DNA of 64,000 nucleotides from a virus. Below, piece after piece: positions 10,335-61,594 of this stretch. The stretch is from IMG/VR virus record IMGVR_UViG_3300016665_000824, positions 70,297-134,296 of that record; one strand, given 5' to 3'. A model generated the notes under the pieces. The model did no database searches. It saw only the letters and a list, made by a program, of their open reading frames with translations, and was not told the origin of the DNA. Positions within the stretch are counted from its first letter, which is position 1. Every line of letters begins with the position of its first letter. The translations under genes were made by a program, and so were the position numbers.

Positions 10335-11199
10335 TTGGCTCAAAGCCTAGTGGCGTTGCTAGCAGCTCCGCCACTGAATAGGGATCTCCATTCTCTTTCT
10401 TAAGGACTTCGAGCTTTGCTAGTTGCTTAACAATGCTCCTGATTTGTCCTAGATAAGAGCTTTCAGAGATTTTGTTTATGATCAGTTCTAGCTCCATCCT
10501 CACAAAGTTTTGTCCATCTTCGTTCATCTGATCGACTAGCGATCGCAGAACCCCGTCTTGAGTTATTCCTCTTAACGTCATTTGCTCTCTAACGTACTTA
10601 CTCAGCAAGTCAGAGATGGTTGTCTCGGATTCCATGCGGTTTTCTTTTGTAGGTATTGTCTTCGACTCTATAGCCTCGACCTTCTTCCGCGAGTCGGCGG
10701 AAGGCGCTTTACTGGCAACTATTAGCGGGATCTCCTTCCTTATCCACGCATTTTTGGGTAGTTTGCCATCATCATTCGTGTCTAAATAATCAAAAACGTT
10801 GTAATCCGAATCCACACTTCCCGTCATACAGAAGAGGAGGAATAATTTAGTCCAAGCTTCGTTCACTTTCGAGTCAGAATATCTTTGTTCTATTTCAAAT
10901 CCGCGAGCCATCTCAGTAAGCTCCCCCCGCAGCCTTTCCTGAGCGGAAAATCTGTCCTTAGCTGTCAAGTTTGTGCCGTCTAGTTTGAGCAGATAGATAA
11001 TAAACTGCTGCATGTAATTACCAAACTCCGCTTGGCTCATTACCATTACATCTTTACGATAGCGCGAGAACCATCTTGAAAATGCCTTAGATCGAATTTT
11101 TGTTCTAGGGTCGTCCTTCCCCTTCTTGAGACTGCCTTGCTTTTCTTTGTCTTTCACCATAGTTGCCGAAGGCATAATTTTCCTCTTGTTTTGCCACAA
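10297..11199 (-). CDS. hypothetical protein
   Basis: 300-aa ORF, Lys-rich N-terminus; isolated minus-strand gene between plus-strand blocks. Confidence 0.4.
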   Translation of the reverse strand: MWQNKRKIMPSATMVKDKEKQGSLKKGKDDPRTKIRSKAFSRWFSRYRKDVMVMSQAEFGNYMQQFIIYLLKLDGTNLTAKDRFSAQERLRGELTEMARGFEIEQRYSDSKVNEAWTKLFLLFCMTGSVDSDYNVFDYLDTNDDGKLPKNAWIRKEIPLIVASKAPSADSRKKVEAIESKTIPTKENRMESETTISDLLSKYVREQMTLRGITQDGVLRSLVDQMNEDGQNFVRMELELIINKISESSYLGQIRSIVKQLAKLEVLKKENGDPYSVAELLATPLGFEPIREDSHRSLRSR

Positions 11200-11226
11200 A
11201 ATTAAAACATTTTTACGTTATATATG

Positions 11227-11277
11227 GTATCCTTATGAGGTGTCCATATATTGGATCAAATCCTAGTATAAGGATAC
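11227..11277. promoter_or_regulatory. 10-bp perfect inverted repeat (gtatccttat / ataaggatac) in divergent intergenic region
   Basis: Read from sequence; lies between starts of 10297..11199 (-) and 11300.. (+), next to a TGCCACAAAATT motif at 11192. Confidence 0.4.
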
Positions 11278-11299
11278 ACCAAAAAACGGAAAAACGAGT

Positions 11300-11755
11300 A
11301 TGTCTAACTCTAGTTCTGCCACAAAATTGGCGATCGCAAGATTAAAAGGATCTGACCTGCCTATTTTTGTTCCAGTTTCAGTCTCTGAGAAAGTCGCAAC
11401 CCTAGTCAGGGAGTGTATTTTACAGTCCGACAGTTTAAAGATATTAAAAGTTACTACTACAGTTTACAACGAGCTTACTAAGCATTTAAAGCAGTACGAA
11501 AAGCCAAAATATACCATTCCTCAGTATCTTTTGATGCTCCTATATACGGTTTCTACTACTTCAGAATTGATCGAAAAACACAACAAGGGTTTAATTTCAG
11601 ATGACGAGTTTATTAACTGTATCAAAAACAACAAAAACGCAAACGGGACTAAAACCTCCCGCAAAATGGGTCGGAAGAAAGCAAGCGTTGATGCCAGCGA
11701 TCGCGCAGTACTTCCCCGCGAGGTTCACAAAAGAACCAGTTCCAAGGTTTCTTGA
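11300..11755 (+). CDS. hypothetical protein (3' end uncertain; overlaps MTase gene in another frame)
   Basis: 151-aa ORF; last ~40 codons look non-coding and overlap the Dam-like ORF. Confidence 0.3.
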   Translation: MSNSSSATKLAIARLKGSDLPIFVPVSVSEKVATLVRECILQSDSLKILKVTTTVYNELTKHLKQYEKPKYTIPQYLLMLLYTVSTTSELIEKHNKGLISDDEFINCIKNNKNANGTKTSRKMGRKKASVDASDRAVLPREVHKRTSSKVS

Positions 11756-12518
11756 TTTCAAAAAGGGTGTCGGCAATTTCCACGACCCTTTCGTTGGTAC
11801 TGGTAGTGCATTTTTGTATTTTGCGGATGGATTTCGAGGCGATCGCAAGATTTTTATTAGTGACAGTAATCCTGAACTCATTAATATTTGGCTGTGCATT
11901 CAAGCCGATCCTCTAAGGCTTTTAAGATCCTTGCTTGAATACAAGCGCCCTGTATTTAACAGCGCCGAATCGTACTATCACGAAAGGCAGATCTTCAATC
12001 AGCAGTTTAAAGGTTCTTACGACTACGAGCTAGCAGCAAGAATGATCTACTTAATTCAGGCTGGTTTCAATAGCCTATGGAGGGTTAACAGCGACGGTGA
12101 AATGAACACGCCTTTTGGCTCTCAGAAGCAAATTGCCCTTCTTACCGAGAATGATTTGACCGCGCTTTCGGTTCTCCTTCAAAAAGCGACAATCAAACAT
12201 CAGCCTTTTGAAGAGTCGCTAAAAGATGTACAACCCAATGATGTCGTCTATCTCGACCCGCCATACATTGAAGTCAAAAAGAATTCCTTCAATAAATACA
12301 CCACAAAAGGTTTTAGCAGAGAGCAGCAGATACTCCTCCGCCAAGAAGCCGATCGCCTGCACGATCTAGGCGCTTATGTATACGCCAGTAATAGCGATAC
12401 CCCCTTGAGTCGCGAAATTTGGTCGGGCTGGAAAATCGCAGAACTGACGAGATCGGGCTGCATGAACTCAGATGCAACCAAGCGTCAACGGGTTGGAGAG
12501 TTGTTATTTTATAAATAA
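11601..12518 (+). CDS. N6-adenine DNA methyltransferase, Dam family (D12 class)
   Basis: KWVGRK (cf. KWAGGK), FVGTGSAF SAM-binding motif, and DPPY catalytic motif (VVYLDPPYIE) in the translation. Confidence 0.8.
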   Translation: MTSLLTVSKTTKTQTGLKPPAKWVGRKQALMPAIAQYFPARFTKEPVPRFLDFKKGVGNFHDPFVGTGSAFLYFADGFRGDRKIFISDSNPELINIWLCIQADPLRLLRSLLEYKRPVFNSAESYYHERQIFNQQFKGSYDYELAARMIYLIQAGFNSLWRVNSDGEMNTPFGSQKQIALLTENDLTALSVLLQKATIKHQPFEESLKDVQPNDVVYLDPPYIEVKKNSFNKYTTKGFSREQQILLRQEADRLHDLGAYVYASNSDTPLSREIWSGWKIAELTRSGCMNSDATKRQRVGELLFYK

Positions 12519-12542
12519 AAAAAGCCAGTCGCGGGACTGGCT
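12516..12542 (-). terminator. hairpin with U-run on minus strand
   Basis: agccagtc-gcgg-gactggct preceded on plus strand by A7; would terminate minus-strand (antisense) transcripts inside a plus-strand gene block. Confidence 0.35.
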
Positions 12543-12618
12543 ACAGGTAAAACAACAAAAGACAACTAAGCGGAAATCAACATATACCGAGCATTTGTGG
12601 AGAACAGCTCAGGCACTT

Positions 12619-13122: not shown

Positions 13123-13127
13123 ACACT

Positions 13128-13394: not shown

Positions 13395-13395
13395 T

Positions 13396-14141: not shown

Positions 14142-14407
14142 TGCGAAAAATAGACAAGGACTACAGTTTTACAGAACGAGAGATTCAGGCGTTAATGTTG
14201 ATATGCACTATTGGACGAGAAGACTGGCTCACTAAAGAGGTGAAGGAGATATTGTCGCAATACATAAGCAGAAAGATGTATCACAGGACTGCTTCTCAAG
14301 TCTTTGCTCACAGAAAAAGAGTTCTGGGTTCTTTCCCTAGCAATGCGGGTAAATACTTACTTGAAAGGCGAACTAGCTTTATTGAGCGATCGCGGAGGAG
14401 TGAGTAA
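14141..14407 (+). CDS. hypothetical protein
   Basis: 88-aa ORF; ends ...RSRRSE within a third copy of GCGATCGCGGAGGA. Confidence 0.35.
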   Translation: MRKIDKDYSFTEREIQALMLICTIGREDWLTKEVKEILSQYISRKMYHRTASQVFAHRKRVLGSFPSNAGKYLLERRTSFIERSRRSE

Positions 14408-14413
14408 AAATAT

Positions 14414-14450
14414 AAAAAGACGATCCGACGTGAGATCGGATCGTCTTTTT
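14414..14450. terminator. bidirectional intrinsic terminator between convergent gene blocks
   Basis: Perfect 15-bp stem aaaaagacgatccga / tcggatcgtcttttt, 7-nt loop, A/T tracts on both sides. Confidence 0.7.
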
Positions 14451-14578
14451 ATATTTTGGTAGGCTGTGAAACAACTAATACAAAAGGGTTTTAGGGTATT
14501 GGAAGGAATTTTGGTAAGGTGTGAATCTCGCTGCTTTTTAATTACGCGAATACACGTAATTCATATTTACCAATACCT

Positions 14579-22681: not shown

Positions 22682-23263
22682 GTGGGCAAAAACACACAAA
22701 ATTACAACAAAACTATGCAAGAAGAAATCTCACAACAGGAAATCGCTGCGATCGCAGCCGCAAAACTGAAAAGAATGCAGCGATCGCAACAACAAGAGCC
22801 GATAACGAAGGTCGAGCCAAAAACTCCAAGTCCCGCACCAGCAAAACAGTCAAAATCAGCAACAAACAGCTACTGGAACAAACCTCAAAGCAGCATCGAC
22901 ATCGTGAAAAACCCCAAGCACGTTGCCGATATTTACACCATGACCCCGTGGATACCCCAGCCACAGGTAGATGATATCTGCGCGATCGCCGAAAGACCCT
23001 ACGGCGACTGGATAGACCTCGAAGCGCAGCATATCGAAGGCAAGTGGGATAGGCAAAGATTCATTGAGTCAGCCTATAACTGGCCTTTCCGCGCCAAGAT
23101 GCGATGTGTTGAAATTTCTGAGGACGGACTGATGGCAACAGTATCCGTCTCAGGAGTCCGCAAACGATTACCACTAGTGTGTTTATGGGAGATGAATGAA
23201 ATAGTTGACACTATGACTAATAGTGAGTATGATGAATCTTGGTTTCAGGTAAGACAATTATGA
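22682..23263 (+). CDS. hypothetical protein
   Basis: 193-aa ORF; its 3' end contains an internal promoter-like element. Confidence 0.4.
   Translation: MGKNTQNYNKTMQEEISQQEIAAIAAAKLKRMQRSQQQEPITKVEPKTPSPAPAKQSKSATNSYWNKPQSSIDIVKNPKHVADIYTMTPWIPQPQVDDICAIAERPYGDWIDLEAQHIEGKWDRQRFIESAYNWPFRAKMRCVEISEDGLMATVSVSGVRKRLPLVCLWEMNEIVDTMTNSEYDESWFQVRQL
23205..23233 (+). promoter_or_regulatory. sigma70-type promoter (TTGACA-N17-TATGAT)
   Basis: Canonical -35 and -10 hexamers with 17-nt spacer about 27 nt upstream of ATG 23260. Confidence 0.45.
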
Positions 23264-23574: not shown

Positions 23575-23661
23575 CTCCAGCAACTAAAGCAAGATTCACA
23601 AATAGGCGATCGCCTTCTCTGCCTCGTTTTTTAACATTTTGTGGCAGTTAAAAGAAAATGT

Positions 23662-23690
23662 TTGACAGTATGCCTAGTAGTGTGTATGAT
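23662..23690 (+). promoter_or_regulatory. sigma70-type promoter (TTGACA-N17-TATGAT), second copy
   Basis: Same hexamers and spacing as 23205-23233; about 80% identical 50-bp context; 26 nt upstream of ATG 23716. Confidence 0.45.
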
Positions 23691-23715
23691 GGTATTTAGT
23701 TTCAGGTAAAACAAT

Positions 23716-24234
23716 ATGACGAATAGCTTGGCTGTGACCTACCAATCGCTCCCACAGAAAGAACAGCTTGAGATACTAGCAGGAGTATCACACCTTATGA
23801 TAAAGGTAATGGCAGGTAAAATCCCAACAACAGAAGAGATGGACTTGGCTTCAAAAGCCCAGACCCATCCAAGCCTATTTTTAAAATGCTTCTCTGCCGA
23901 ACTTATGGGAGAGGAGTGGAGACCAAAGCTATTGCCTCAAGGCGGAGAAGGGTATATTATTCGCTGGAAATCCGATGAATACGAAGAGGTAGAGACCGAC
24001 TCCTATCCCTTTAAAAAGAGGGTTTACAAAGAAGAGGGCAATGGACTTGAAATCCAAAGCTACGAGCAGGCGATCGCCAATTGTGAATTTCTAAATAAGC
24101 AATACCCAGAGAGGACTTACTGGCACTTCTGGGTAAACCAAGACATCCTCAACAACGCAGAAAGCGAGGGTCTTCAACTCATAGACACTGTTGCTCAGCA
24201 TCTCTTTGAGGCTCTATCACAGGCTCATGGTTAG
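23716..24234 (+). CDS. hypothetical protein
   Basis: 172-aa ORF downstream of promoter copy 2. Confidence 0.4.
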   Translation: MTNSLAVTYQSLPQKEQLEILAGVSHLMIKVMAGKIPTTEEMDLASKAQTHPSLFLKCFSAELMGEEWRPKLLPQGGEGYIIRWKSDEYEEVETDSYPFKKRVYKEEGNGLEIQSYEQAIANCEFLNKQYPERTYWHFWVNQDILNNAESEGLQLIDTVAQHLFEALSQAHG

Positions 24235-26059: not shown

Positions 26060-26088
26060 AGATCTGAATTACCACAAAAGCACAATGA
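26060..26088. repeat. 29-bp direct repeat R2 copy a (agatctgaattaccacaaaagcacaatga)
   Basis: Identical copy at 26801-26829; both include a start codon. Confidence 0.7.
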
Positions 26089-26359: not shown

Positions 26360-26851
26360 ATGGCAAGTGTCAAGCATTATTTAAGTTGCCCAGCTAAGCC
26401 CTACGAAGAAGGGATACCCTTATACTCCGATCGCCTGAGAGAATGGTTTCACGATATCGGTGATGTCTGGGAATACTACGAAGATCAGATCGGAGAAGAT
26501 GAGGATATTGATCTTGAATGGGCGGAAGCCAAGCAATCGCCTCAAGGTATTTGTGAAATGGCTCGTCTTTTCTTAGGTAGACCAGTTTATTTGCCGTGGG
26601 CTGAGATTCCTGAATTTGATCTACCTGATGGTGTTGACGATATCTCGGAAATACTGCCGCCAAGCCACGAGATCAACATAAAACTTGCCGAGTTAAACAA
26701 GCTTATCGAAGAAACAAAGCTGGTTGTTTGCTACGAGGAGTCTAGCTACCGCCCAGATCCAGAAACCTTGGACTTTAAGTGCGCGATCGTCGCTTTTTTT
26801 AGATCTGAATTACCACAAAAGCACAATGAAAGCTCGACAGTTCGAGATTAA
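26360..26851 (+). CDS. hypothetical acidic protein
   Basis: 163-aa ORF; 3' end runs through R2 copy b. Confidence 0.35.
   Translation: MASVKHYLSCPAKPYEEGIPLYSDRLREWFHDIGDVWEYYEDQIGEDEDIDLEWAEAKQSPQGICEMARLFLGRPVYLPWAEIPEFDLPDGVDDISEILPPSHEINIKLAELNKLIEETKLVVCYEESSYRPDPETLDFKCAIVAFFRSELPQKHNESSTVRD
26801..26829. repeat. 29-bp direct repeat R2 copy b
   Basis: Identical to 26060-26088. Confidence 0.7.
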
Positions 26852-27643: not shown

Positions 27644-27790
27644 TTTGATCGGTAACGTAAATTTGTGGCAATATTAACAGAAGCGTTTCAAGAACAATGA
27701 ACAAACTAATTGCCTATCTGGTAAACAAAATCGAATCTGCTTACCACACTGCAAGATTCCTGCTATCTATACTTAAATTGGAGTTTCCCC

Positions 27791-29276: not shown

Positions 29277-29309
29277 AAATCCATAAAACTACCACAAAAT
29301 CGAGTTATC

Positions 29310-34864: not shown

Positions 34865-34944
34865 CTGACGTATATTTGTGGTAGTATTATTTTATTAGGC
34901 GATCGCCACAAGAATCGCATTAAACTTTTATCAGGTGAATAAAT

Positions 34945-39090: not shown

Positions 39091-40715
39091 TATCCCGATC
39101 GCCACACGATATCCATCAGAGTTTCCCTACCAGCGAAAGCAATAACACAAGCGTCACTACAATTAGGCGATCGCCCCAATCTACGAATAGTTTTAGAAGC
39201 CTTATCCTCAATGCGTAACTTCGCGTTGGGGGTTTCTTCGTAGTAGACGTTACTAAAGTCCGTCATCAGATATTCTTCCTCCTCTAGTGGTGCGATCGCC
39301 GATATATCGTCATTGCCATCGGCAGCAGCAAAGAATTCACGCAGTTTCCAATACCATTGAGCCTTCCAGTTCATATATAGCTGATCGAAGTCTTGGTTGG
39401 CATCTTCTTCTACCGCATCACCAAAGTTAGCTGCCCATACTTGCGCTCCCCATCCGCGATCGAGCAAGTAAGCTAATGTACCCGAACCAACACCCGTGGC
39501 ATCTATACCCACTTTACAGTTAGGATAGACGCGCAGATATTCTTCCTCAATGATTTGGGCAATACGAATAACGTCTTTGCGATCGCCTACACAGGGGATA
39601 ACCCTCGCGATCTTAAGCACATTACCTTGAAACCCACAAATAGCATGGTCATCACTCATGGAGCCGACATCTACACCAAAACTCCAAGGTGTATTGACAT
39701 TGATAATTGTTTCCCACAGATCGGGATTGAGATCGTATCTTGCCCGTGCCGCAACAAAGTAGCTCTTGGGAAGTATAGACGCGCCACCCGATTCCGAGAA
39801 CAAGCCCTCAATACGAGTCAGCCAGAAAGGTGAGTTTTCACCCTTCTTGATACGCATCCTTTCAATCCATGCGATCGAGATAGCACCCTTGATTACATCT
39901 CTGGGTAAGTCAGCATCCCATTCGGATTGAGGTTTGATTGGCTCGTCGCGAGAGTTGGGGTCATTAGGCGATCGCTTAATCTTTGCCTCGACCTCTGGTT
40001 TAAGTCGGTGCATCCCATCAAGATGCAGGTCGTAAGCCCATTCAACATTTGGGTGCTGCCATGCACTGCATCTGATATGGCTGAGGTTGCAAGCAGTATA
40101 GAAAGGGGAGTCACATCTGGTTGGGTTGCCAATACGAAGAATCTTATTTTGTTCCCCTGTAAGACAGCTTTCTAGGGAGGTATCTACGGCAGGACTGATA
40201 CCACAGGCTTCATCTTCAATAATAAGCATTCGTTCTGAGTGGATACCCTGCGCTGCCGAATCATTATGGTCACTACTGGAAAAGCCGTATGCCTCAACCC
40301 CTTCTTCGAGGAATACCCGCAGCTCATTTCTCTTGCCGCCGAGCTTCTTCTTGTGTTTGTCGTATAGACGACGGACAACGCCCCAAAGCAACTTAGTAAC
40401 CTGTCGGTGAGTTGGTGCGGTAGAGATAACAAGCGATCGCACAGCAAATACCGCCCAGAGGACTAACCACCCACTCAAGTATGTCTTGCCTAAACCGTGG
40501 CAGGCGGCAACATTGGTAACACGCTTGTTCTTGACCGATTCAAGAATGGTGATCTGTTGTCCCGTGATAACAATATCGGGTTCAAGGTATCGAATAAATC
40601 CTTCGGGGTCGTCGGCAAATCGGGTTAAGTCTTCACCGATCGCCACATCCCCCTCATTACCTGATACCAGCTTAATCTGCGTATTACAGCTCGTCTTCAG
40701 TCTCGCAAAGCCCAC
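39087..40715 (-). CDS. terminase large subunit
   Basis: Walker A ACHGLGKT, Walker B LIIEDEA, C-terminal RNase-H-like nuclease segment (FGVDVGSMSDD ... VGIDATGVGSG). Confidence 0.7.
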   Translation of the reverse strand: MGFARLKTSCNTQIKLVSGNEGDVAIGEDLTRFADDPEGFIRYLEPDIVITGQQITILESVKNKRVTNVAACHGLGKTYLSGWLVLWAVFAVRSLVISTAPTHRQVTKLLWGVVRRLYDKHKKKLGGKRNELRVFLEEGVEAYGFSSSDHNDSAAQGIHSERMLIIEDEACGISPAVDTSLESCLTGEQNKILRIGNPTRCDSPFYTACNLSHIRCSAWQHPNVEWAYDLHLDGMHRLKPEVEAKIKRSPNDPNSRDEPIKPQSEWDADLPRDVIKGAISIAWIERMRIKKGENSPFWLTRIEGLFSESGGASILPKSYFVAARARYDLNPDLWETIINVNTPWSFGVDVGSMSDDHAICGFQGNVLKIARVIPCVGDRKDVIRIAQIIEEEYLRVYPNCKVGIDATGVGSGTLAYLLDRGWGAQVWAANFGDAVEEDANQDFDQLYMNWKAQWYWKLREFFAAADGNDDISAIAPLEEEEYLMTDFSNVYYEETPNAKLRIEDKASKTIRRLGRSPNCSDACVIAFAGRETLMDIVWRSGY

Positions 40716-41302: not shown

Positions 41303-41551
41303 CTAGCCGATTTTGTGGTAATAGCGATCGCATTCTGCTAATTCTGACTCAATATACTTAAGATCGGACTCAAGATGAGGGGACAGAGGATTTAGATGGG
41401 CGTATCTCATCTCGGCGGAATATCTTCTATAGAGGATCTTAAGCTCTTCCTTTGTTGGCTCAGGTAGCGATCGCCTAGCTCTGTCCTTGATCATTACATC
41501 GGAATACTGTTCAAAAGCCAATTTATTCATTACTGATTCTGCTGATCGCAT
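41303..41551 (-). CDS. hypothetical protein
   Basis: 82-aa ORF. Confidence 0.35.
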   Translation of the reverse strand: MRSAESVMNKLAFEQYSDVMIKDRARRSLPEPTKEELKILYRRYSAEMRYAHLNPLSPHLESDLKYIESELAECDRYYHKIG

Positions 41552-44035: not shown

Positions 44036-45185
44036 ATTTCTTGGGCATAATTACCGATGTCAGGAATGATTCCTGCTCTACTCCGTCGCAAGGGCTAACC
44101 ATTACTAGCGGTCGAGTTCCCTCGTATACCTCCAGCTTAATGTGTTTTGATTTTGTGGTATCCAAAATATGCTGCAAGTATTTTATGTTGAACCGAGCAG
44201 CAAATCCTGACACGCCAACATCGCATGGCAGTGATTCTTCCACCCTGCCAACACCCGCAACTTCAGCAACAAGTATCAACTCATCACCCTTGATAGTGAT
44301 GTCAACCAAGTAGCTAGTAATCTCACCCTCACACAACGAAGCAACGGTCTTCAAGCTGGTAATCAGCTCTTTGCGATCGCACTTTACCGACCCAGACATC
44401 TCTTTGAGCCGTACGTTAACGAGACTCGATCGTACTGGTGGAAATGGTTGAGCAATTAGTGGTGAGATGATGGTTAGCGCGTGGCTATAAAACCAAATAT
44501 GGTTACTGGCTAAACGCACTTCAGTCTCTGCTTGGGTGATGTGCAGAACCTCTTTGAGCGATCGCGCAGGTATTGTCGCATTAATCAGCTTTTCACTCAA
44601 TTCGGGGTGGACAAATCTGATACAAGATCCTCGACAGCCATCGGTTGCTGTGAAGGATAGGAATCTCGTCGGGTCATCTTCACCATCAATGATTTCGTCG
44701 TACTCCGCTAGGTTCACACCCGTAAGTGCAGGCTTAGTTTCGTCGTTAGATACGAGCTTTAAGGTAGCCACAATGCCGTCCCGCAGTATATCTGTGGCGA
44801 TCGCAAAGGTGTCAGCATCAGTAATCTTGGGGGTGCTTGGGTATGAGTCGGCGCTGATAGTTGGTAGTGAGATTTTACTCTTACCACACTTAATAGTGGC
44901 AATACCTTCGGATACCTTGATTAAAACCTCTTCACCGTTGAGGGACTTTACCGCGTCGGAGAATCGCTTGGCATTGAGCGCGATCGCGCCCTCTTCTTTG
45001 ATACTATCGGAATCCTCTCTGCGGATTAGCCAAAGCTTTAGGTCGGTAGCTGTGATGGTGAAGAGATCGTTCTTCGCTTCGAGTCGAAAGTTTGTTAAGA
45101 TTTCCTGCGGTGGAGACTTAGAAACAGCTTCCTTTACTGCGTCCACCATCGATTTCAACGTTTTGAGAGGGAGTGTTAGTTGCAT
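44004..45185 (-). CDS. dnaN: DNA polymerase III beta sliding clamp
   Basis: 393 aa; N-terminus (LKTLKSMVDAV ... FTITATDLKLWL) matches DnaN pattern and length. Confidence 0.75.
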   Translation of the reverse strand: MQLTLPLKTLKSMVDAVKEAVSKSPPQEILTNFRLEAKNDLFTITATDLKLWLIRREDSDSIKEEGAIALNAKRFSDAVKSLNGEEVLIKVSEGIATIKCGKSKISLPTISADSYPSTPKITDADTFAIATDILRDGIVATLKLVSNDETKPALTGVNLAEYDEIIDGEDDPTRFLSFTATDGCRGSCIRFVHPELSEKLINATIPARSLKEVLHITQAETEVRLASNHIWFYSHALTIISPLIAQPFPPVRSSLVNVRLKEMSGSVKCDRKELITSLKTVASLCEGEITSYLVDITIKGDELILVAEVAGVGRVEESLPCDVGVSGFAARFNIKYLQHILDTTKSKHIKLEVYEGTRPLVMVSPCDGVEQESFLTSVIMPKKFEEDEDDEED

Positions 45186-50930: not shown

Positions 50931-50986
50931 TCTGATTAGACTGTCCGATCACCTGTCCAATGGACATCTGATTAGACTGTCCGATC
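50931..50986. promoter_or_regulatory. two 20-bp direct repeats (TCTGATTAGACTGTCCGATC), candidate operator
   Basis: Copies at 50931-50950 and 50967-50986 in the divergent region between the operon start (50908) and RHH gene (51089). Confidence 0.45.
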
Positions 50987-51088
50987 AGAATAAAATTAGT
51001 GTACTTAAGTTATTCGCACTTGTCAACAAAATAGTAGAAACTCGTTTTGAATGCGCTAATATTGGGCAATTCAACCTATTAAGACCTT

Positions 51089-51352
51089 ATGAGCGTCACT
51101 CAGACTGCGCGTTTCCCCGATGATTTACATGCTGCATTGAAAGAACACTGCGATCGCACAGGAAATAGCGCCAACGCAGAAATAATCCTCGCAGTGCGAA
51201 AACATCTGGGTATGCCAACAGTCGAAGATCGTCTCGATAGTCTTGAAGAGGGATTGAGAAAATGTATTGATAGGTTGAATAGGCTAGAGGCTAGCGCGAT
51301 CGCCACTCAGCAATCTTCCGACACCGATATTCGGTCCAGTGCGGATGATTAG
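51089..51352 (+). CDS. ribbon-helix-helix (Arc/MetJ/CopG-type) transcriptional regulator
   Basis: N-terminal TARFPDDLHAALKEHCDRTGNSANAEIILAVRKHL fits beta-strand/helix/helix RHH pattern. Confidence 0.45.
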   Translation: MSVTQTARFPDDLHAALKEHCDRTGNSANAEIILAVRKHLGMPTVEDRLDSLEEGLRKCIDRLNRLEASAIATQQSSDTDIRSSADD

Positions 51353-51593
51353 TCGGCGTGTACCAATTTTCATATTTGTAAGTACCCTTTGACCTGTTGC
51401 AAGGCGTACAAGCTGGTACGGTATTTGCAAAGTCGTCGCTACCCGAATCATGGCGCGGAATGATATGGTCTAGTCCGTTTGCCTCGTTACCGCAGTAGGC
51501 ACATTTATAGTCAAACTCTTGGAACGTATAATCTCTAATCTTTTGCAAAACATCTTTTTTCCTAATGCAGTCAGATAGGGATATATAGAGCAT
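51291..51593 (-). CDS. HNH endonuclease
   Basis: CAYCG ... LDHIIP ... ACTPCNRSKG HNH motif; start set at ATG 51593 (ORF track 51638). Confidence 0.7.
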   Translation of the reverse strand: MLYISLSDCIRKKDVLQKIRDYTFQEFDYKCAYCGNEANGLDHIIPRHDSGSDDFANTVPACTPCNRSKGTYKYENWYTPTNHPHWTEYRCRKIAEWRSR

Positions 51594-51709
51594 ATTCAAT
51601 ACCCATGTTTTGACAATGCTGCCACAAAATTGAAACAAGTGCGGCGATCGCTACAGATTTGGCGAACCAAATATCGCTATACTGACACAAGAAGATTTTT
51701 AAAAACTAA

Positions 51710-52188: not shown

Positions 52189-52241
52189 ACACAAGCAACC
52201 CGCCAAGCCTCTCTACGATGCTGAAACTGGCGGGTTGCTTG
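52189..52241. terminator. stem-loop between convergent genes
   Basis: cacaagcaacccgcc ... ggcgggttgcttgtg, ~14-bp stem with ~23-nt loop, followed by T-rich tgttgtg. Confidence 0.45.
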
Positions 52242-55295: not shown

Positions 55296-56387
55296 TTAAT
55301 TATGTGTTAAGGGGGTTATCTTGGAGGTTTTAGCACCCTCCTCAGAAAGCCTTGCTAGGTAAGCAGACACCCGCCGTCGCAAACTTTTTTTCGACAGTAA
55401 ATCATACTCTTTTTCAAAGATACAGCAAAGTGATTTGTAAAACAAGTTTTTATACTTGAAATAATGAGTATTCACCCTTTCTGCATCAGCAAAATGTCGA
55501 GACAGATAATAGGAATAGTTTACTTCCGCATTGGAGTCTGTTTGACAAATATGTACTCGTCTCAATCTACTGAGAGACCTGCGATCGCGTACTTCTTCGT
55601 CAATGGCTCGAATCGCATCAAGGATCTCAAGGTCATCGCTAAATGGTTCGGCGGCTTGATGGATCTCTTTTAAGTAGGAGTCCCATCGCCGAGTTAGCGA
55701 TCGCTCCTTGAGATGATTTGATATGGTTCGAGCTGTGACTCCCAATGACTTAGCTATTTCTAGCTGAGAAGCGCCATAAGGTACGAAGTTCTCGTTAGTA
55801 TAAATCCTGTCCTTAGATACTGCCTCAACACCCTCAATCCCCATAGAACATAATTCAGAGGCTTGGAGTTTTAGCAAGTCCTTTGCAGGTACTAACCTGA
55901 GTTTTTTCTTTACTTTGCGCTGCTTGTTTTTTTCTTTTTCTGCCAGTCCAGCAGCAAATTTAGAACGAGCTTGTTTTGCAAGTAATTCGGCGCGAGTACA
56001 GTGATACTTAACTTGAGTGATCTGAATCGGACTTAGTTCGACTATCGACCCAAGTTTGGCAACATCATGTTGTTTGCAGACCTTGCCAATACTTGTGTAT
56101 CGCACCCATGCTCGACCTTCTGGTAGCCACCGATAATCGATAAGCAATCCAGCTTTGTGAGACTCCCTAATCCATTTTTTGAGTGTGTCGGGTTTTACGC
56201 CGCAATCACTCGCCAAATGACTGATATTGAATTTAACCCAGCCTTTCCCGCGATCGCTTCTAGATGAAAACTGATCTAGCCCACGCACGACATGCCAAAT
56301 ATTTACTGCGCCGATCGCATGATTTTTGATCACGGCGTAGAGAATATTTGTGTAAGTTGTGGCAATTATGGGGTAATATAGTTTCAT
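55296..56387 (-). CDS. winged-helix/HTH DNA-binding protein, candidate plasmid-type replication initiator
   Basis: 363 aa with two HTH-like segments (IWHVVRGLDQFSS... and SQLEIAKSLGVTARTISNHL); Rep role inferred from neighbourhood (par genes, tandem repeats). Confidence 0.3.
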   Translation of the reverse strand: MKLYYPIIATTYTNILYAVIKNHAIGAVNIWHVVRGLDQFSSRSDRGKGWVKFNISHLASDCGVKPDTLKKWIRESHKAGLLIDYRWLPEGRAWVRYTSIGKVCKQHDVAKLGSIVELSPIQITQVKYHCTRAELLAKQARSKFAAGLAEKEKNKQRKVKKKLRLVPAKDLLKLQASELCSMGIEGVEAVSKDRIYTNENFVPYGASQLEIAKSLGVTARTISNHLKERSLTRRWDSYLKEIHQAAEPFSDDLEILDAIRAIDEEVRDRRSLSRLRRVHICQTDSNAEVNYSYYLSRHFADAERVNTHYFKYKNLFYKSLCCIFEKEYDLLSKKSLRRRVSAYLARLSEEGAKTSKITPLTHN

Positions 56388-57237: not shown

Positions 57238-57250
57238 CAAACAGTCTAAT

Positions 57251-57296
57251 AGCCAGACAAAAAAAGATCCGAAACTGGATCTTTTTTTGTCTGGCT
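57251..57296. terminator. bidirectional intrinsic terminator
   Basis: Perfect 20-bp stem agccagacaaaaaaagatcc / ggatctttttttgtctggct with 6-nt loop, between convergent genes. Confidence 0.7.
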
Positions 57297-57342
57297 TGGT
57301 TTTCAACAAAAAAGCACCCCGCCTAAACGAGATGCTTTTCAC

Positions 57343-57912: not shown

Positions 57913-57985
57913 AAAATTTTGCTACAGTGAATACATAAAATTGCCACAAATCTGCGATAATTCGACATCGTTTCAAAATAAACCC

Positions 57986-58195
57986 ATGTCAATTTGCGGA
58001 ATCTGTGGCGCGGAAGAAGATAACGGCAACATTTCTTTGGAGTTCGATCGCAAGCGAGGTCTCATCACCTCCAACAGAGATGTTCACTTTACGAAATGCT
58101 GCCAACACGCGATCGCCAAGGGTCGAACAGGATGCCCAAATAAAAAGGGCAAAGTCCTTGACCTGCCCTATCTACGTGTCCGACCTATTGTTTAG
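57986..58195 (+). CDS. small Cys-rich protein
   Basis: ORF 57941..58195 starts at TTG; first ATG at 57986 (MSICGICGAEED...); TGCCACAAA motif upstream. Confidence 0.35.
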   Translation: MSICGICGAEEDNGNISLEFDRKRGLITSNRDVHFTKCCQHAIAKGRTGCPNKKGKVLDLPYLRVRPIV

Positions 58196-58440
58196 CTCCA
58201 CGCCAGCTTGTAGCCACAACCCTTGGCGATCGCTCCAGCTTGGTCAAGAGTATCAAAGCCACAAACATTGCGAATGTTCAAATCTGTGTGACTGATCAAG
58301 CCGACTAAATAGTAGCGATCGTCTGGTCCTAGTTCGTAGTTCAAAGTCCCTTGCATAGCCTCCTCCTCGCGAATATCACGCGCTTTTGTGCTAAATTTAT
58401 GGCAATACTAACACAATAGGCGGAATACTGCCACAAAAAA

Positions 58441-58692
58441 ATGCCAAAAGGGATTAAGAAAATTAAAAGAGGGGTGGGGCAGCCTCGGAAGTACAGAAAG
58501 TCGAAGTGTCCACACTGCAAGTCGCACTGGCATACCAGTAATGGAGGCGGGCGCGAAAAGTGTAATGACTGCGGCAAGACATGGGCTAAGAGGAAGGGTG
58601 ATGACGAGCTATTGGCAGCACCACCCGCATCCGTCACCACAAAGAAAAAGGAAGCCCCCGTCAGTATCGCAGATCAAAGACCTGCTGCTTGA
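58441..58692 (+). CDS. C4 zinc-ribbon protein
   Basis: CPHCKSHW ... CNDCGKTW; CTGCCACAAAAAA directly before the ATG. Confidence 0.4.
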   Translation: MPKGIKKIKRGVGQPRKYRKSKCPHCKSHWHTSNGGGREKCNDCGKTWAKRKGDDELLAAPPASVTTKKKEAPVSIADQRPAA

Positions 58693-58757
58693 AAACCACG
58701 ATATTGTCGCTGAGGCGATCACACAAATAACTATTGAAGAAGGTCAAGTAAAAGGCT

Positions 58758-59033: not shown

Positions 59034-59575
59034 CGCAGATGTGGAATACCCTTCTTGAACAAGACCCAAGGTTCAAGATGGTAGTGGACTTAGCAACCCC
59101 ACGAGGTAATCGCAAAAATGTGATGCCCCTCACCCGCGAGAATGTTCGGATTGCCTTCGCCGCATTTAATGACGGTATTGCTGAGCAGTTAACCGACTTG
59201 GCGATCGCCTGTTTTAACCGTTCCCACTCTCCTCGATTCGTCACCACCGATGAAGGTGATGAATTTATTGAAACTAGCGAAGAAGAAATCTATTATCAAT
59301 GGGAGCCTGAAGCGGCTTTGAGGATCTGCAACCAACGCCTTGATGGGTTTCTAATTGAGATCAGCGATCGTGGCACTATTACCAAATTTAAGTACGAGCG
59401 ACCACCTTTCCTGTATCCTCACGGCTGGGCCTATCAACCAACCATGCCCGAAGTTCCCGACGATCCTGAATGCTGCACGTTATTTGATCGAAGAAGCCAT
59501 GCTCGTCGCCGTCGAAGATTTGGGAATGTCGGCGACAAGTATGACCTGCATGGTAAAGCGTGGAAGAAGGGTTAA
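58997..59575 (+). CDS. hypothetical protein
   Basis: 192-aa ORF. Confidence 0.35.
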   Translation: MDEEQQPEHRTITQMWNTLLEQDPRFKMVVDLATPRGNRKNVMPLTRENVRIAFAAFNDGIAEQLTDLAIACFNRSHSPRFVTTDEGDEFIETSEEEIYYQWEPEAALRICNQRLDGFLIEISDRGTITKFKYERPPFLYPHGWAYQPTMPEVPDDPECCTLFDRRSHARRRRRFGNVGDKYDLHGKAWKKG

Positions 59576-59823
59576 GGCAGTATCCTGTCCAGCAGGTAGA
59601 TAATTAAGTGCATAGCCTTAACATTCCTGTTCGCGCAGTATATCTTCAGGCGAGTATGCAGTGAAGCAGGTAGATCAACCGTGATCCGCACAGTCCGCTC
59701 CTTCTCCCCTTCCACGGGCAACCCATCCAAAATATTTCCCGCAGTATTGTTTGTGTTCAGATCGGAATTAGCCTTGATAAAATTCTGCTCAATTGTTTCG
59801 GTAAGAGGTATACGCTTAGACAC
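59572..59823 (-). CDS. ParG-like ribbon-helix-helix protein (candidate centromere-binding partner of ParA)
   Basis: C-terminal RITVDLPASLHTRLKIYCANRNVKAMHLIIYLLDRIL is RHH-like; immediately downstream of and overlapping parA. Confidence 0.45.
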   Translation of the reverse strand: MSKRIPLTETIEQNFIKANSDLNTNNTAGNILDGLPVEGEKERTVRITVDLPASLHTRLKIYCANRNVKAMHLIIYLLDRILP

Positions 59824-60448
59824 AGCTCAGCACCTCCTCAAATAAAGCTTCGTACTCTGCCGCCGAATCTTGGGCGGCTTTGCTGTTTAATCCCCAGACA
59901 GTTGTGCGTTGACCAGACGAGTCGGCGATCGCCTGTTTCTGGTGAATCACTGTTTCTAACAATGGGATAACCGATATGGCTTTTAAGGTGGCGATCGCCT
60001 CTTCCTTGAGCATGGTTCGAGGGACTGCGCGGTTTAAAAAGAATGCGGCTCTGGGTAAACCCCCTCGCACTGACTGAGCTTGCAGTATTAGCTTTACTGA
60101 GTCCATTGCCGAGTTGAGGTCTAACCTTGTTGGTTGACATGGAACAATTGCTAGATCAGTTCTTAGTAGGATTGCGCGAGTTACCTCCGACAAGTTGGCG
60201 GGACCATCGAGGATTAAGTAGTCGCTCTTTAGGGCTGGTATTTTGTCGAGAATGCTGTCGGAATCGGACATGATTGTATATGCGATCGGAGTGGCGATCG
60301 TGCCTGCCCATTTACTTGAAGATTGCTGACCATCGGCATCGACCAGGATTACGTCTTTATCGTGGCGGCGCAGATACTCTGCCAAGTGGACTGAAGTGGT
60401 GGACTTGCCACAACCACCTTTTTGATTGACCAACGAGATTACAGTCAT
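59816..60448 (-). CDS. parA: partition ATPase ParA (small, type Ib-like)
   Basis: Deviant Walker A NQKGGCGKST, 210 aa. Confidence 0.8.
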   Translation of the reverse strand: MTVISLVNQKGGCGKSTTSVHLAEYLRRHDKDVILVDADGQQSSSKWAGTIATPIAYTIMSDSDSILDKIPALKSDYLILDGPANLSEVTRAILLRTDLAIVPCQPTRLDLNSAMDSVKLILQAQSVRGGLPRAAFFLNRAVPRTMLKEEAIATLKAISVIPLLETVIHQKQAIADSSGQRTTVWGLNSKAAQDSAAEYEALFEEVLSCV

Positions 60449-60597
60449 AGTTATTCGTGGGAGTATTACCTCCGCGCATTAAACCATGATCGTTGCGATA
60501 CTGCAATCAGTAAGTACTGAAGGTGTCCGCGCAAACGTTATTTGTGATGCTGGAAGCTTTACTGGGAAAGGGTTTTAGAATGTCCTTGCAAATAAGA

Positions 60598-60798
60598 TTA
60601 GTTGACTGACCTTATTTTAAAATGCTTGCAATTCACTGGGCAGCGATCGCCTAACCAAGATGCTTCGGTATGGACGTGGAGATCGCTAGTTTTCCAGATT
60701 TGTGGGTTATAGCAATGGTCGGCGCAATCGGGGCTGTACGACTCCCACTTCGGATTAACCCCGTTCCAGTAACAGTCGAGTCGGGTTTCGGTGTGCAT
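60598..60798 (-). CDS. hypothetical Cys-rich protein
   Basis: 66-aa ORF. Confidence 0.3.
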   Translation of the reverse strand: MHTETRLDCYWNGVNPKWESYSPDCADHCYNPQIWKTSDLHVHTEASWLGDRCPVNCKHFKIRSVN

Positions 60799-60801
60799 GT
60801 C

Positions 60802-61050
60802 CTACCAGAACCAATTATCGTAGAAAGTTATAGTCAAGCAAAAAGCAAGTAGTTCAAGCCCAAACTGGATCTCTCCAGTATCGTCATAACAAAATATCCT
60901 AAGCCATGTCTCTGGATAGGAATGTGTGATTTGAAAATCTAGCTTAACCAACGGGATCTGACTAGGCTCAATCAGTATCCAAGCATTGTCCTGATATGGC
61001 AGCTCGTATGGATTGTTGTGGTCGTATTCAAATTTTTTGATTTTGAACAT
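60802..61050 (-). CDS. hypothetical protein
   Basis: 82-aa ORF. Confidence 0.3.
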   Translation of the reverse strand: MFKIKKFEYDHNNPYELPYQDNAWILIEPSQIPLVKLDFQITHSYPETWLRIFCYDDTGEIQFGLELLAFCLTITFYDNWFW

Positions 61051-61250
61051 AAATATTAAAAAGCGATCGCCAATAGGCTATGTGATTTTTACGATTCTAA
61101 ACTTGATATCTCGATATGTCCGACGCAAAGATGACAGCTCCACCTTGGCTTCTTTCTTGTCGTACTGATACTTATTTTGTCTAACCCATACGTTAGGCTG
61201 CTCAAACTTTGTTACTAACTTTTCAATTGCGTACATCGTTGTAACTGGTT

Positions 61251-61440
61251 TAAAAAGCGATCGCTATCCTGAAGAGAGGTGGATAGGCGATCGCAAAATG
61301 TACATCATGAAAAATCCTCTCCCCACAATCTTAACTTGGATTCGCATTAAAAAGCGATCGCTATCCTGAAGAGAGGTGGACAGGCGATCGCTAAAATGAT
61401 TATCTAACATGACCTCTCCCCACAATTTTAACTTGATTTT
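61251..61440. repeat. two tandem ~97-bp repeats, each with a pair of HIP1 sites
   Basis: taaaaagcgatcgctatcctgaagagaggtgga(t/c)aggcgatcgc ... cctctccccacaat(c/t)ttaacttg at 61251 and 61348; ORF-free region upstream of the par operon. Confidence 0.6.
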
Positions 61441-61594
61441 GTGGCAAAAAAATACCGACGTCCTGTGGAGTGGTGGACGACGGGCTATGTAATCTCGATG
61501 GTCTGGAAATATTCTACGCGGTTTTGTGGCGCTTTTATTATCGAATCCCGCATTTAATCGATAATAACGAGAAAATTATTCCTAGATATTATCA

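What the first reader, a model, noticed from the sequence alone, without database searches (positions are those of the whole stretch)
11192..61446. Recurrent (C)TGCCACAAAA(TT) motif near gene starts
Exact or near-exact copies lie close to start codons in both orientations: 11192-11201, 11317-11326, 51620-51629, 57942-57950 and 58429-58440 forward; 23637-23646, 27662-27670 and 61437-61446 reversed; variants ACCACAAAA at 26071, 26811 and 29291, and TTTTGTGGTA at 34875 and 41311. Several copies sit 0-20 nt before an ATG. This looks like an element-specific regulatory site (operator, activator site or translational leader element). No regulator is assigned to it.
Basis: seen in the sequence. Interest (0 to 1): 0.55.

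Follow-up and report, generated by a model that had tools for sequence, protein, structure and literature searches.

The report
Conserved promoter-region DNA motif of cyanophage
A 10-16 base DNA word (TAATAYTGCCACAAAA) is repeated in the promoter regions of a large, uncultured cyanobacterial phage and its relatives, and is most likely the docking site of a phage-encoded gene regulator: a real but ordinary kind of feature.

Summary
TGCCACAAAA occurs 6 times in the window against 0.28 expected, with 0 of 100 shuffles reaching 6. Five of the six copies are non-coding. A 43-kb relative has 8 exact copies, 5 of them at non-orthologous places. Copies inside genes are mutated in relatives, so they are chance.

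The strongest site is the 15-mer AATACTGCCACAAAA at 58424-58438. It is invariant in five lineages, abuts the start codon of an 83-aa zinc-ribbon gene, and lies in an 84-nt divergent region holding 4-5 copies.

Sites occur in both orientations, 0-200 nt from start codons. They overlap or flank promoter-like elements and sometimes form perfect inverted pairs. That fits a DNA-level operator of a phage-encoded regulator, functionally like the dispersed C1 operators of phage P1. It does not fit a ribosome-binding or leader element.

The regulator is not identified. The adjacent zinc-ribbon protein is the best candidate. The ParA-linked ribbon-helix-helix protein is less likely, because the parA upstream region carries a different repeat.

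A rival I could not exclude is that the word, with its -10-like 5' flank TAATAY, is itself part of a phage-specific core promoter.

Verdict: a new member of a known kind, of modest interest.

The parts
58424..58438 (+). Master site: AATACTGCCACAAAA, 2 nt before the ATG (58441) of the zinc-ribbon gene
   Evidence: 15 of 15 bases are identical in five lineages (window, rel, L045, L170, L173), although the flanks and the adjacent protein are only about 55-65% identical.
58384..58404 (-). Two degenerate copies in the opposite orientation (TTTTGTGCTA 58384-58393, ATTTATGGCA 58395-58404), 11 nt apart, in the same 84-nt divergent region
   Evidence: Relatives have better copies at the same place: TTTTGTGGTA / ATTTGTGG.
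58442..58451 (+). Degenerate tandem copy (TGCCAAAAGG) overlapping codons 1-4 of the zinc-ribbon gene
   Evidence: In rel the same position is an exact copy, giving TGCCACAAAAGATGCCACAAAAGG with 12-nt spacing.
51620..51629 (+). Exact copy between the HNH gene (51291-51593, -) and the gene at 51710 (+)
   Evidence: The 10-mer and a -10-like flank (AATGCT / AATCCT / TATCCT) are kept in rel and L170, within a region about 75% identical.
61437..61446 (-). Exact copy in the third unit of a 97-nt x3 tandem repeat, in the divergent region between the operon containing parA and the HNH gene
   Evidence: Conserved in rel. Degenerate partners CCCCACAAT lie at 61321 and 61418.
61522..61531 (-). One-mismatch copy (CGCCACAAAA) about 80 nt upstream of the HNH gene ATG at 61614
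   Evidence: The core GCCACAAA is kept in rel, which reads TGCCACAAAG there.
11192..11201 (+). Exact copy in the divergent region 11179-11299. It lies 13 nt from the ATG (11178) of the leftward structural operon and overlaps TTGCCA-17-TACGTT pointing right
   Evidence: The ortholog in L048 is TGCCATAAAA.
11317..11326 (+). Exact copy in codons 6-9 of ORF 11300-11755. Function doubtful
   Evidence: L048 has TGCCACAAGG here, and the substitutions around it follow a coding pattern.
23637..23646 (-). Exact copy 15 nt upstream of the -35 of a TTGACA-17-TATGAT promoter-like site for gene 23716-24234
   Evidence: (D10). No relative covers this spot.
27661..27670 (-). TGCCACAAAT, 26 nt before the ATG at 27697, opposite orientation
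   Evidence: rel has TGCCATAAAT (C to T).
57942..57951 (+). TGCCACAAAT in the divergent region 57913-57994
   Evidence: GCCACA(A/G)A is kept in rel and L045.
34874..34891 (+). A-type island ATTTGTGGTAGTATTATT upstream of the MazG gene. It reads as an extended -10 (TGnTAGTAT)
   Evidence: 17 bases (34875-34891, TTTGTGGTAGTATTATT) are identical in rel, L002 and L004 within a 78%-identical region.
29290..29300 (+). A-type copy TACCACAAAAT, 9 nt before the ATG at 29310
   Evidence: Conserved in rel.
26070..26079 (+). A-type copy inside a duplicated block of about 35 nt (also at 26811-26820). Probably not a functional site
   Evidence: The single copy in rel reads CCGCAAAA.
41311..41320 (-). Coding-region copy, chance (same for 44151-44160)
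   Evidence: Mutated in L002, L004 and rel while the flanks are 96% identical.
58441..58692 (+). 83-aa basic zinc-ribbon protein (KRGVGQPRKYRK, then CPHC...CNDC). Top candidate for the motif-binding regulator
   Evidence: Always adjacent to the site cluster in five lineages, with a near-invariant N-terminal 50 residues. The AF2 zinc-ribbon core has pLDDT about 85. The only fold matches are generic and not significant.
58192..58356 (-). 54-aa gene transcribed divergently from the cluster
59572..60448 (-). Type Ib ParA (59816-60448) plus an 83-aa ribbon-helix-helix protein (59572-59823). Second candidate binder
   Evidence: The parA upstream region carries a different repeat (CAGTA-N2-TACTG, 60508-60519) and not the motif.

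Best explanation
The word is a double-stranded-DNA recognition site, about 16 bp long (TAATAY-TGCCACAAAA). It belongs to a clade of roughly 134-140-kb HIP1-rich cyanobacterial phages, possibly phage-plasmids.

A phage-encoded sequence-specific protein binds it at about ten promoter regions. Binding controls, most likely represses, transcription initiation. The sites lie over the -35, over the -10/+1, just upstream of the -35, or in pairs bracketing a promoter.

The densest and most conserved cluster lies between two divergent small genes. That cluster would be the regulator's own autoregulated switch, which makes the adjacent 83-aa basic zinc-ribbon protein the best candidate binder.

Shown: enrichment, non-coding location, conservation, turnover between lineages, and site geometry.

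Inferred: that a protein binds, that the effect is repression, and which protein it is.
For: Enrichment:
- 6 exact copies against 0.28 expected in the window.
- 8 against 0.04 expected in 15 kb of the relative.

Out-of-sample copies in the same 134-kb contig, outside the window:
- A perfect 15-nt inverted pair around GTGGCA-18-TATAAT, between two genes.
- A 12-nt-spaced doublet, AATACTCCCACAAAATCGCCACAAGA, upstream of a pRha-family regulator gene.

Location: 5 of 6 exact copies and 7 of the 8 best PWM hits are non-coding. Five of about eight divergent promoter regions carry a good site.

Selection:
- Coding copies decay in relatives, while intergenic copies at 51620, 58429 and 61437 are kept.
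- The 15-mer at 58424-58438 is invariant in five lineages.
- Five of the relative's 8 copies are at non-orthologous places.

Geometry, which fits a DNA-binding protein rather than an RNA signal:
- Both orientations occur.
- Tandem copies are spaced 11-13 nt apart.
- Inverted pairs sit about 31-36 nt centre to centre in three lineages.
- Distance to the ATG varies.

Overlap with promoter-like hexamers is seen.

No Rfam family overlaps any site.
Against: - No binding or expression data exist. The regulator is nominated only by adjacency and conservation.
- The zinc-ribbon protein has no family assignment, and its only fold matches are generic and not significant: RNA-binding ribosomal zinc ribbons at E > 0.2.
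- A 10-bp invariant asymmetric core is long for one small domain.
- The 5' flank is -10-like (T13 A13 A12 T12 A11 Y17 of 19 independent sites). The word could therefore be part of a core promoter rather than a separate operator.
- Single sites between co-directional genes show an orientation bias of 4 to 1, which a pure orientation-free operator does not predict. The numbers are small.
- Sigma-70-like matches in the region are not above chance overall: 16 found against 21 expected.
Confidence: 0.45

Rival explanations
1. Core-promoter element. The unit TAATAY + TGCCACAAAA is a phage-specific promoter: a -10-like hexamer followed by a conserved discriminator and start region. It would be read by host RNA polymerase, perhaps with a phage-encoded or particular host sigma factor or co-factor, and transcription would start in CACAAAA. 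The zinc-ribbon gene would then be nearly leaderless. Copies pointing back into upstream genes would make antisense RNAs.
For: The -10-like flank is present at most of the 19 independent sites.

The flank hexamer is kept at the 51620 site in three lineages: AATGCT, AATCCT, TATCCT.

AATACT is invariant before GCCACAAAA at the zinc-ribbon gene in five lineages, 9-11 nt before its ATG, and that gene has no Shine-Dalgarno sequence.

The right arm of each inverted pair follows TATAAT, TATACT or AATACT.

Most divergent promoter regions carry a copy.

Read on the other strand, A-type copies form TGnTAnnnT extended -10 elements that are conserved at 34874 and in the middle of the switch region.
Against: Either reading direction leaves several exact copies pointing the wrong way.
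- Read as TGCCACAAAA->, the copies at 23637, 27661, L005 9323 and L005 13444 are antisense to both neighbouring genes.
- Read as TTTTGTGGCA->, the copies at 11192 and 45196 lie too close to the ATG, and half of them lack a T at -7.

Some exact copies have no -10-like flank: TGTTTT at 11192 and TTTTTT at 61437.

No sigma factor or RNA polymerase gene was found among the roughly 90 window ORFs scanned. About 50 kb of the genome was not seen.
Confidence: 0.28
2. Centromere-like or replication-related binding sites. The word would be bound by the ParA-associated ribbon-helix-helix adaptor, giving dispersed centromeres as in plasmid-prophage N15 or the omega sites of pSM19035. Alternatively it would be bound by the replication initiator or DnaA.
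For: - A type Ib ParA + RHH cassette is present and conserved.
- ParA is 55-59% identical to ParA of cyanobacterial plasmids.
- One copy sits in a 97-nt x3 tandem repeat upstream of the operon containing parA.
- rel and L173 have a copy upstream of the par genes.
- The GCAGTA found in plasmid parA operators also occurs in the best motif copies, as GGCAGTAT.
- CCACA is the core of DnaA boxes (my own knowledge).
Against: The region immediately upstream of parA has no copy in four lineages. It carries a different conserved repeat instead: CAGTA-N2-TACTG and TTGCAGTATCGCAA.

L170 has no copy within 600 nt upstream of parA.

Most copies lie at promoters of unrelated genes.

The word differs from TTATCCACA / TTTTCCACA at the positions that define a DnaA box. 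It has G where T is required and an extra base.
Confidence: 0.1
3. RNA-level signal. The word in the 5' leader would act as a translational enhancer or as the operator of a translational repressor. The zinc-ribbon protein could then bind its own mRNA at AAUACUGCCACAAAA-AUG.
For: Sense-strand copies lie 2-12 nt before the ATG at 58429, 26071, 26812 and 29291.

The site abuts the ATG of an SD-less gene in five lineages.

The best fold matches of the zinc ribbon, though weak, are RNA-binding ribosomal proteins.
Against: Exact copies lie on the non-transcribed strand relative to all neighbouring genes (23637, 27661, L005 9323, L005 13444), upstream of -35 hexamers, or would be sequestered in 14-15-bp inverted pairs.

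The 26812 copy is mutated in the relative.

The word has no complementarity to the 16S 3' end (my own knowledge of the anti-SD sequence).
Confidence: 0.07
4. Non-functional repeat: a compositional or mobile-repeat artefact, like HIP1 or host hairpin repeats.
For: The genome is saturated with HIP1. Cyanobacterial genomes carry hairpin repeats that contain the same 10-mer in their stems.
Against: The word is not linked to HIP1. It is restricted to non-coding DNA. It is conserved where the flanks diverge and is lost from coding DNA. The window copies do not share longer repeat units, except 26070/26811.
Confidence: 0.03

Closest known systems
C1 repressor operators of plasmid-prophage P1 (my own knowledge, not tested here)
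   Same: A short asymmetric operator word is scattered over many promoter regions of a large phage genome that also carries a ParA-type partition system. Copies occur singly or as overlapping or inverted pairs, in either orientation, and one regulator would control many dispersed operons.
   Different: The sequence is unrelated (P1: ATTGCTCTAATAAATTT, 17 bp). No C1 homologue was found. The candidate binder here is a small zinc-ribbon protein. Lysogeny or plasmid carriage of this phage is not shown.
Ogr/Delta/B zinc-finger late activators of P2/P4/186 and their promoter-upstream sites (my own knowledge)
   Same: A small phage-encoded Cys4 zinc protein acts at several dispersed promoters through a short conserved DNA element near -55. 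The copy at 23637 is centred at about -55 of a promoter-like site.
   Different: Ogr sites are dyad-symmetric (TGT-N12-ACA) at a fixed position. Here the word is asymmetric and its position varies from upstream of -35 to +1. The Cys spacing differs (CX2C-X14-CX2C), and there is no Pfam match to that family.
Omega (RHH) heptad operators/centromeres of pSM19035 and ParG sites of TP228 (my own knowledge)
   Same: Short asymmetric repeats, in direct and inverted arrangements at several promoters, serve a ParA partner. An RHH + type Ib ParA pair is present here.
   Different: The parA upstream region carries a different repeat. Isolated single copies are common here, whereas omega needs at least 2 adjacent heptads.
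Extended -10 (TGn / TRTGn) sigma-70 promoters
   Same: Read on the other strand, the word gives TGTGG(C/T)A..., that is TRTG-n followed by a hexamer. A-type copies give TGnTAGTAT or TGnTATTAT, conserved at 34874 and in the middle of the switch region.
   Different: G-type copies put C at -12, and about 40% lack T at -7. The invariant TTTT and GG are not explained by that consensus.

Membership tests
Shine-Dalgarno / translational leader element | Lies on the mRNA sense strand at a narrow, fixed distance (about 5-12 nt) upstream of start codons | tested here: not met
   Copies occur on both strands and 0 to about 200 nt from the ATG. Several are antisense to all neighbouring genes.
Shine-Dalgarno / translational leader element | Complementary to the 3' end of 16S rRNA (CCUCC) | tested here: not met
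   TGCCACAAAA and its complement contain no GGAGG-like stretch (read from the sequence). Real SDs are visible elsewhere, for example GGAGGAGG before the ATG at 58356.
Sigma-70 type promoter (-35/-10) | TTGACA-like and TAnnnT hexamers 16-18 nt apart, at a fixed register relative to the word | tested here: inconclusive
   GTGGCA-18-TA(T/G)nAT is found only at inverted pairs and in the switch region. A -10-like flank TAATAY occurs at most sites. No register fits all sites, and consensus matches are not above chance.
DnaA box | 9-mer TT(A/T)TNCACA (cyanobacterial TTTTCCACA) | tested here: not met
   The best register, (T/C)TGCCACA, has G at the required T4 and variable bases at positions 1-3.
Type Ib partition centromere/operator (RHH adaptor sites) | Repeats of the word immediately upstream or downstream of the parA-adaptor operon | tested here: not met
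   The 220 nt upstream of parA in win, rel, L170 and L173 lacks the word and has CAGTA-type repeats instead. Related plasmid loci have GCAGTAA repeats.
Type Ib partition centromere/operator (RHH adaptor sites) | The adaptor protein binds the repeats | not testable with these tools
   Needs EMSA or footprinting.
Dispersed phage repressor operators (P1 C1-like, functional class) | The same asymmetric word at many promoter regions, overlapping core promoter elements, in either orientation | tested here: met
Dispersed phage repressor operators (P1 C1-like, functional class) | A cognate repressor encoded by the element that binds the word and silences the promoters | not testable with these tools
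   Only candidates can be named: zinc-ribbon 58441-58692, RHH 59572-59823, RHH 51089-51352, HTH 55296-56387. No homologue of C1 was detected in the Pfam, PHROG or NCBIfam scans.
Known RNA families (Rfam 15) | Covariance-model match at the gathering score overlapping a copy | tested here: not met
   The only hit in the window is abiF RNA at 52199-52235, which does not overlap any copy.

The most novel reading that the evidence does not exclude
The word is the operator of a previously undescribed class of phage master regulator: an 83-aa zinc-ribbon protein with an AT-hook-like basic arm (KRGVGQPRKYRK). This protein would autoregulate from an invariant site at its own, nearly leaderless, start. 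Through about 10-20 dispersed copies it would control the lytic versus plasmid-carriage decision of a clade of ~134-140-kb cyanobacterial phage-plasmids.
Probability: 0.2. Interest if true: 0.55.

Novelty: new member of a known kind. Interest (0 to 1): 0.36.

Why it matters
Gene regulation in freshwater cyanophages outside the T4- and T7-like groups is almost unknown. This clade has no cultured member.

A validated operator or promoter word with a mapped set of target promoters would give three things. It would provide a first regulatory map of the clade. It would offer a handle for pulling out the regulator, by DNA affinity capture with TAATACTGCCACAAAA. It would also give a marker for recognising related phages and their transcription units in metagenomes.

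If the element is a phage-plasmid, as the plasmid-type ParA/RHH cassette suggests, the motif could be its maintenance switch.

In kind, however, repeated operator or promoter words are routine in phage genomes.

Tried and rejected
- **Sigma-70 -35 reading (TTGCCA/CTGCCA).** Only the copy at 11192 has a TAnnnT at 17 nt.
- **Fixed -10 at 18 nt downstream of GTGGCA.** It holds only where the partner copy supplies it.
- **Promoter scan.** Matches are not above the shuffled expectation.
- **Known isolates.** Megablast of 15 kb against phage genomes found nothing. The closest portal proteins are only 28-31% identical: S-CBS4, Aphanizomenon CL131 and PaV-LD. The closest DnaB is 28% identical.
- **Genome collection.** There is no relative of DnaB.
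- **Literature string search.** The word turns up only in primers.
- **Scan for TTTTGTGGCA-N0-30-TGCCACAAAA.** It returned mostly unrelated hairpins and arrays: phage L033, Bacteroidota, and Pseudanabaena/Synechococcales hairpin repeats. None shares a protein with the window, so I judged these uninformative coincidences of a palindrome search.
- **Regulator identification.** Pfam, PHROG and NCBIfam scans of about 90 ORFs found no sigma factor, CI/Cro or C1 homologue.
- **Zinc-ribbon protein.** PDB sequence search, AF2 and Foldseek gave only generic zinc-ribbon matches.
- **P0002.** It was returned as a homologue of the zinc-ribbon protein but is a fusion sharing only the C-terminal tail. I excluded it from the alignment.
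- **Recognition-residue conservation.** I hoped it would discriminate the two candidates, but both have invariant DNA-binding segments.

Full report
**What the window is**

The window carries 186 copies of the cyanobacterial HIP1 palindrome GCGATCGC. It also carries phage genes:
- portal (3257-4912)
- a terminase-like large subunit (39087-40715)
- a tail-fibre-like protein
- DnaG, DnaB, a RepO-like initiator, SSB, RusA and the pol III beta clamp
- thymidylate synthase, dCTP deaminase and MazG
- two DNA methyltransferases and two HNH endonucleases

The window is identical over the three genes looked up, and over the window ends checked, to part of a 134,398-nt metagenome contig, ENA ERZ27292652 k141_20893. 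No cultured phage is close: the portal is at most 31% identical and DnaB at most 28%.

I found relatives in public collections:
- a 43-kb IMG/VR contig that I call 'rel' (L001/L003/L005, about 80% DNA identity)
- L048
- L045
- L170, from a 140,681-nt contig
- L173

**The observation**

TGCCACAAAA occurs 6 times against 0.28 expected, and 0 of 100 shuffles reach that count. After HIP1-containing words are removed, it is among the most over-represented 10-mers in the window.

Five of the six exact copies are non-coding, as are 7 of the 8 best position-weight-matrix hits. About 17% of the window is non-coding by my crude gene map. The binomial p values are 7e-4 and 3e-5.

**Is it under selection?**

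Four observations say yes.

1. Copies inside genes (41006, 41311, 44151, 60406) are mutated in relatives even where the flanks are 86-96% identical. Intergenic copies at 51620, 58429 and 61437 are intact although their flanks are as low as 77% identical.
2. The relative has 8 exact copies in 15 kb against 0.04 expected. Five of them are at places with no counterpart in the window. The word is therefore gained and maintained independently.
3. In a five-lineage alignment of the region between the 54-aa gene and the zinc-ribbon gene, the 15-mer AATACTGCCACAAAA (window 58424-58438) is invariant, while the neighbouring sequence is heavily diverged.
4. DNA of the same contig just outside the window serves as an out-of-sample test.
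   - It holds a perfect 15-nt inverted pair, TTTTGTGGCAATATT...AATATTGCCACAAAA, between two co-directional genes.
   - It also holds a 12-nt-spaced doublet upstream of a pRha-family regulator gene.

Nineteen independent sites give the consensus T A A T A Y T G C C A C A A A A t T.

**Which copies count**

The G-type copies are the real set. They lie at 11192, 23637, 27661, 51620, 57942, 58429 (with its neighbours at 58384-58404 and 58442), 61437 and 61522.

The copy at 11317 lies in codons 6-9 of a gene whose substitution pattern in L048 is clearly coding, and the word is not kept there.

The A-type variants (TACCACAAAA) are mixed:
- 34874-34891 is a conserved island that reads as an extended -10 (TGnTAGTAT) before the MazG gene.
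- 29290 is conserved.
- 26070 and 26811 belong to a duplicated block of about 35 nt whose single copy in the relative reads CCGCAAAA.
- 41311 and 44151 are coding and chance.

**Anatomy**

Copies occur on both strands. The distance from a copy to the nearest start codon it points towards ranges from 0-3 nt (the zinc-ribbon gene) through 10, 16, 26, 26, 29, 61, 69 and 82 nt to about 200 nt.

Five of about eight divergent promoter regions hold a good copy.

The 84-nt region 58357-58440 holds two copies pointing right, a degenerate middle copy, and one or two copies pointing left. Spacing is 11-13 nt within each pair.

Inverted pairs with 23-26 nt between the 10-mers occur in three lineages, right after a stop codon. 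They bracket GTGGCA-18-TATAAT, -TATACT or -AATACT.

Other placements:
- At 11192 the word overlaps TTGCCA-17-TACGTT pointing right and lies 13 nt from the ATG of the leftward structural operon.
- At 23637, and at rel 33259, it sits 13-15 nt upstream of a consensus-like -35, in opposite orientations.

**Interpretation**

A signal read in RNA, such as a ribosome-binding or leader element, cannot explain exact copies that are antisense to all neighbouring genes. Nor can it explain copies upstream of -35 hexamers or copies locked in 14-15-bp inverted pairs.

A purely directional promoter element fails in either reading direction for several exact copies.

A sequence-specific DNA-binding protein that sits on or next to core promoter elements explains all copies. 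Because several sites cover the -35 or the +1 position, repression is the simplest effect.

The functional analogue I know best is the set of dispersed asymmetric C1 operators of plasmid-prophage P1.

I put this explanation at about 0.45.

**Candidate binders**

The densest and most conserved cluster is always next to an 83-aa basic zinc-ribbon gene (58441-58692).
- Its N-terminal 50 residues (KRGVGQPRKYRK, then CPHC...CNDC) are nearly invariant in five lineages.
- It has no family assignment.
- Its fold matches are generic and not significant.

The second candidate is the RHH protein (59572-59823), encoded downstream of a type Ib ParA.
- Its beta-strand ERTVRITVDLP is invariant in 8 homologues.
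- The region immediately upstream of parA lacks the word in four lineages and carries CAGTA-N2-TACTG and TTGCAGTATCGCAA instead.
- Related ParA-RHH loci on cyanobacterial plasmids have GCAGTAA repeats.
- The RHH therefore probably has its own, different operator.

Other possible binders are the RHH at 51089-51352, which has its own 21-nt direct repeat at 50931/50967, and the HTH protein at 55296-56387.

**Main rival**

The 5' flank TAATAY is -10-like. It is kept at the 51620 site in three lineages, and it is invariant (AATACT) before GCCACAAAA at the zinc-ribbon gene, which has no Shine-Dalgarno sequence.

The word could therefore be the discriminator and start region of a phage-specific promoter class (about 0.28). 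This overlaps with the operator model, since an operator placed over -10/+1 would look the same. Only 5'-end mapping and binding assays can separate the two.

Lesser rivals are centromere or replication sites (about 0.10), an RNA-level signal (about 0.07) and a non-functional repeat (about 0.03).

**Novelty**

I found no literature or database record of the word. The clade is uncultured. The kind of feature, a repeated operator or promoter word in a phage, is well known. I class it as a new member of a known kind, with interest about 0.36.

Noticed in passing
window 59572-60448 (- strand); plasmid loci L176, L177: A type Ib ParA + ribbon-helix-helix cassette lies inside a phage genome. ParA is 55-59% identical to ParA of Crocosphaera, Nostoc, Dolichospermum and Planktothrix plasmids, whose partner genes are RHH proteins too. 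This suggests the ~134-kb element may be a cyanobacterial phage-plasmid. No integrase was found in the window.
   Followed up: partly
window 60493-60519: Conserved CAGTA-N2-TACTG and TTGCAGTATCGCAA palindromes lie about 50-70 nt upstream of parA in four lineages. Related plasmids have GCAGTAA tandem repeats in the same place. This is probably the par operator/centromere, distinct from the motif.
   Followed up: partly
window 50931-50951 and 50967-50987: A perfect 21-nt direct repeat, TCTGATTAGACTGTCCGATCA, occurs twice, 36 nt apart. It lies in the divergent region upstream of the RHH gene 51089-51352 and next to a TTGACA-17-TACACT site. It looks like a second, different operator.
   Followed up: no
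window 61219-61478: Three tandem 97-nt units, each with a HIP1 site and a CCCCACAAT element. Only the third carries the exact motif. They lie between the operon containing parA and an HNH gene.
   Followed up: partly
window 23199-23258 and 23656-23715: A 60-nt duplicated promoter-plus-leader block, 80% identical, with TTGACA-17-TATGAT and the leader TTTCAGGTAAAACAATATG. It precedes two successive genes. Only the second copy has the motif upstream.
   Followed up: partly
window 11226-11277: A conserved inverted repeat, GGTATCCTTAT...ATAAGGATAC, lies in the putative 5' leader of gene 11300. The single arm change in L048 (C to T) would keep a G-U pair, which hints at an RNA structure.
   Followed up: no
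window 52199-52235 (+): An Rfam abiF RNA motif matches at 46.9 bits (gathering score 37), in a convergent intergenic region.
   Followed up: no
whole window: HIP1 (GCGATCGC) occurs 186 times in 64 kb, one per 344 bp, in coding and non-coding DNA alike. This density is well above that of the cyanobacterial (e.g. Pseudanabaena) loci fetched (3-16 per 8 kb).
   Followed up: partly
L046 1154-1390, L047 302-538 (protein P0002): In two short contigs from different assemblies, the N-terminal 45 residues of the 54-aa protein are fused to the C-terminal tail of the zinc-ribbon protein. The genes downstream of the zinc-ribbon gene reappear in inverted order on the other side of the switch. This is either an inverted duplication centred on the motif cluster or an assembly chimera.
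   Followed up: partly
L033 13100-13750 (IMGVR_UViG_3300042258_000145); L110, L116, L130, L146, L169: Unrelated genomes carry arrays of palindromes built from the same word. L033 is a phage with GC 56%; the others are Chitinophagaceae and other Bacteroidota. In L033 the palindrome CTTTTGCCACAA-GGTT-TTGTGGCAAAAG repeats with a 97-bp period. No protein is shared with the window.
   Followed up: partly
L058, L092, L095, L111, L117, L119, L155 (Pseudanabaena and related); L051, L094, L099, L121 (Synechococcales MAG): Cyanobacterial genomes contain a family of long hairpin repeats with the inner stem TTTTGTGGCAYGGC...GCCRTGCCACAAAA. Whether this relates to the phage word or to its host range is unknown.
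   Followed up: no
window 62878-63405; rel L005 11094-11822: An ORF has tandem coding repeats, (V)EAPVE(VVV) in the window and ATTVEA in the relative. These arise from 12- and 45-nt DNA repeats at 63149-63377.
   Followed up: no
window 14407-14457 and 57251-57296: Perfect 22-nt and 20-nt inverted repeats sit at convergent gene ends. They are likely bidirectional terminators.
   Followed up: no
L045 4272-5450: A relative carries an IS605-type TnpB (OrfB_IS605 / Cas12f-like) gene inserted close to the switch module.
   Followed up: no
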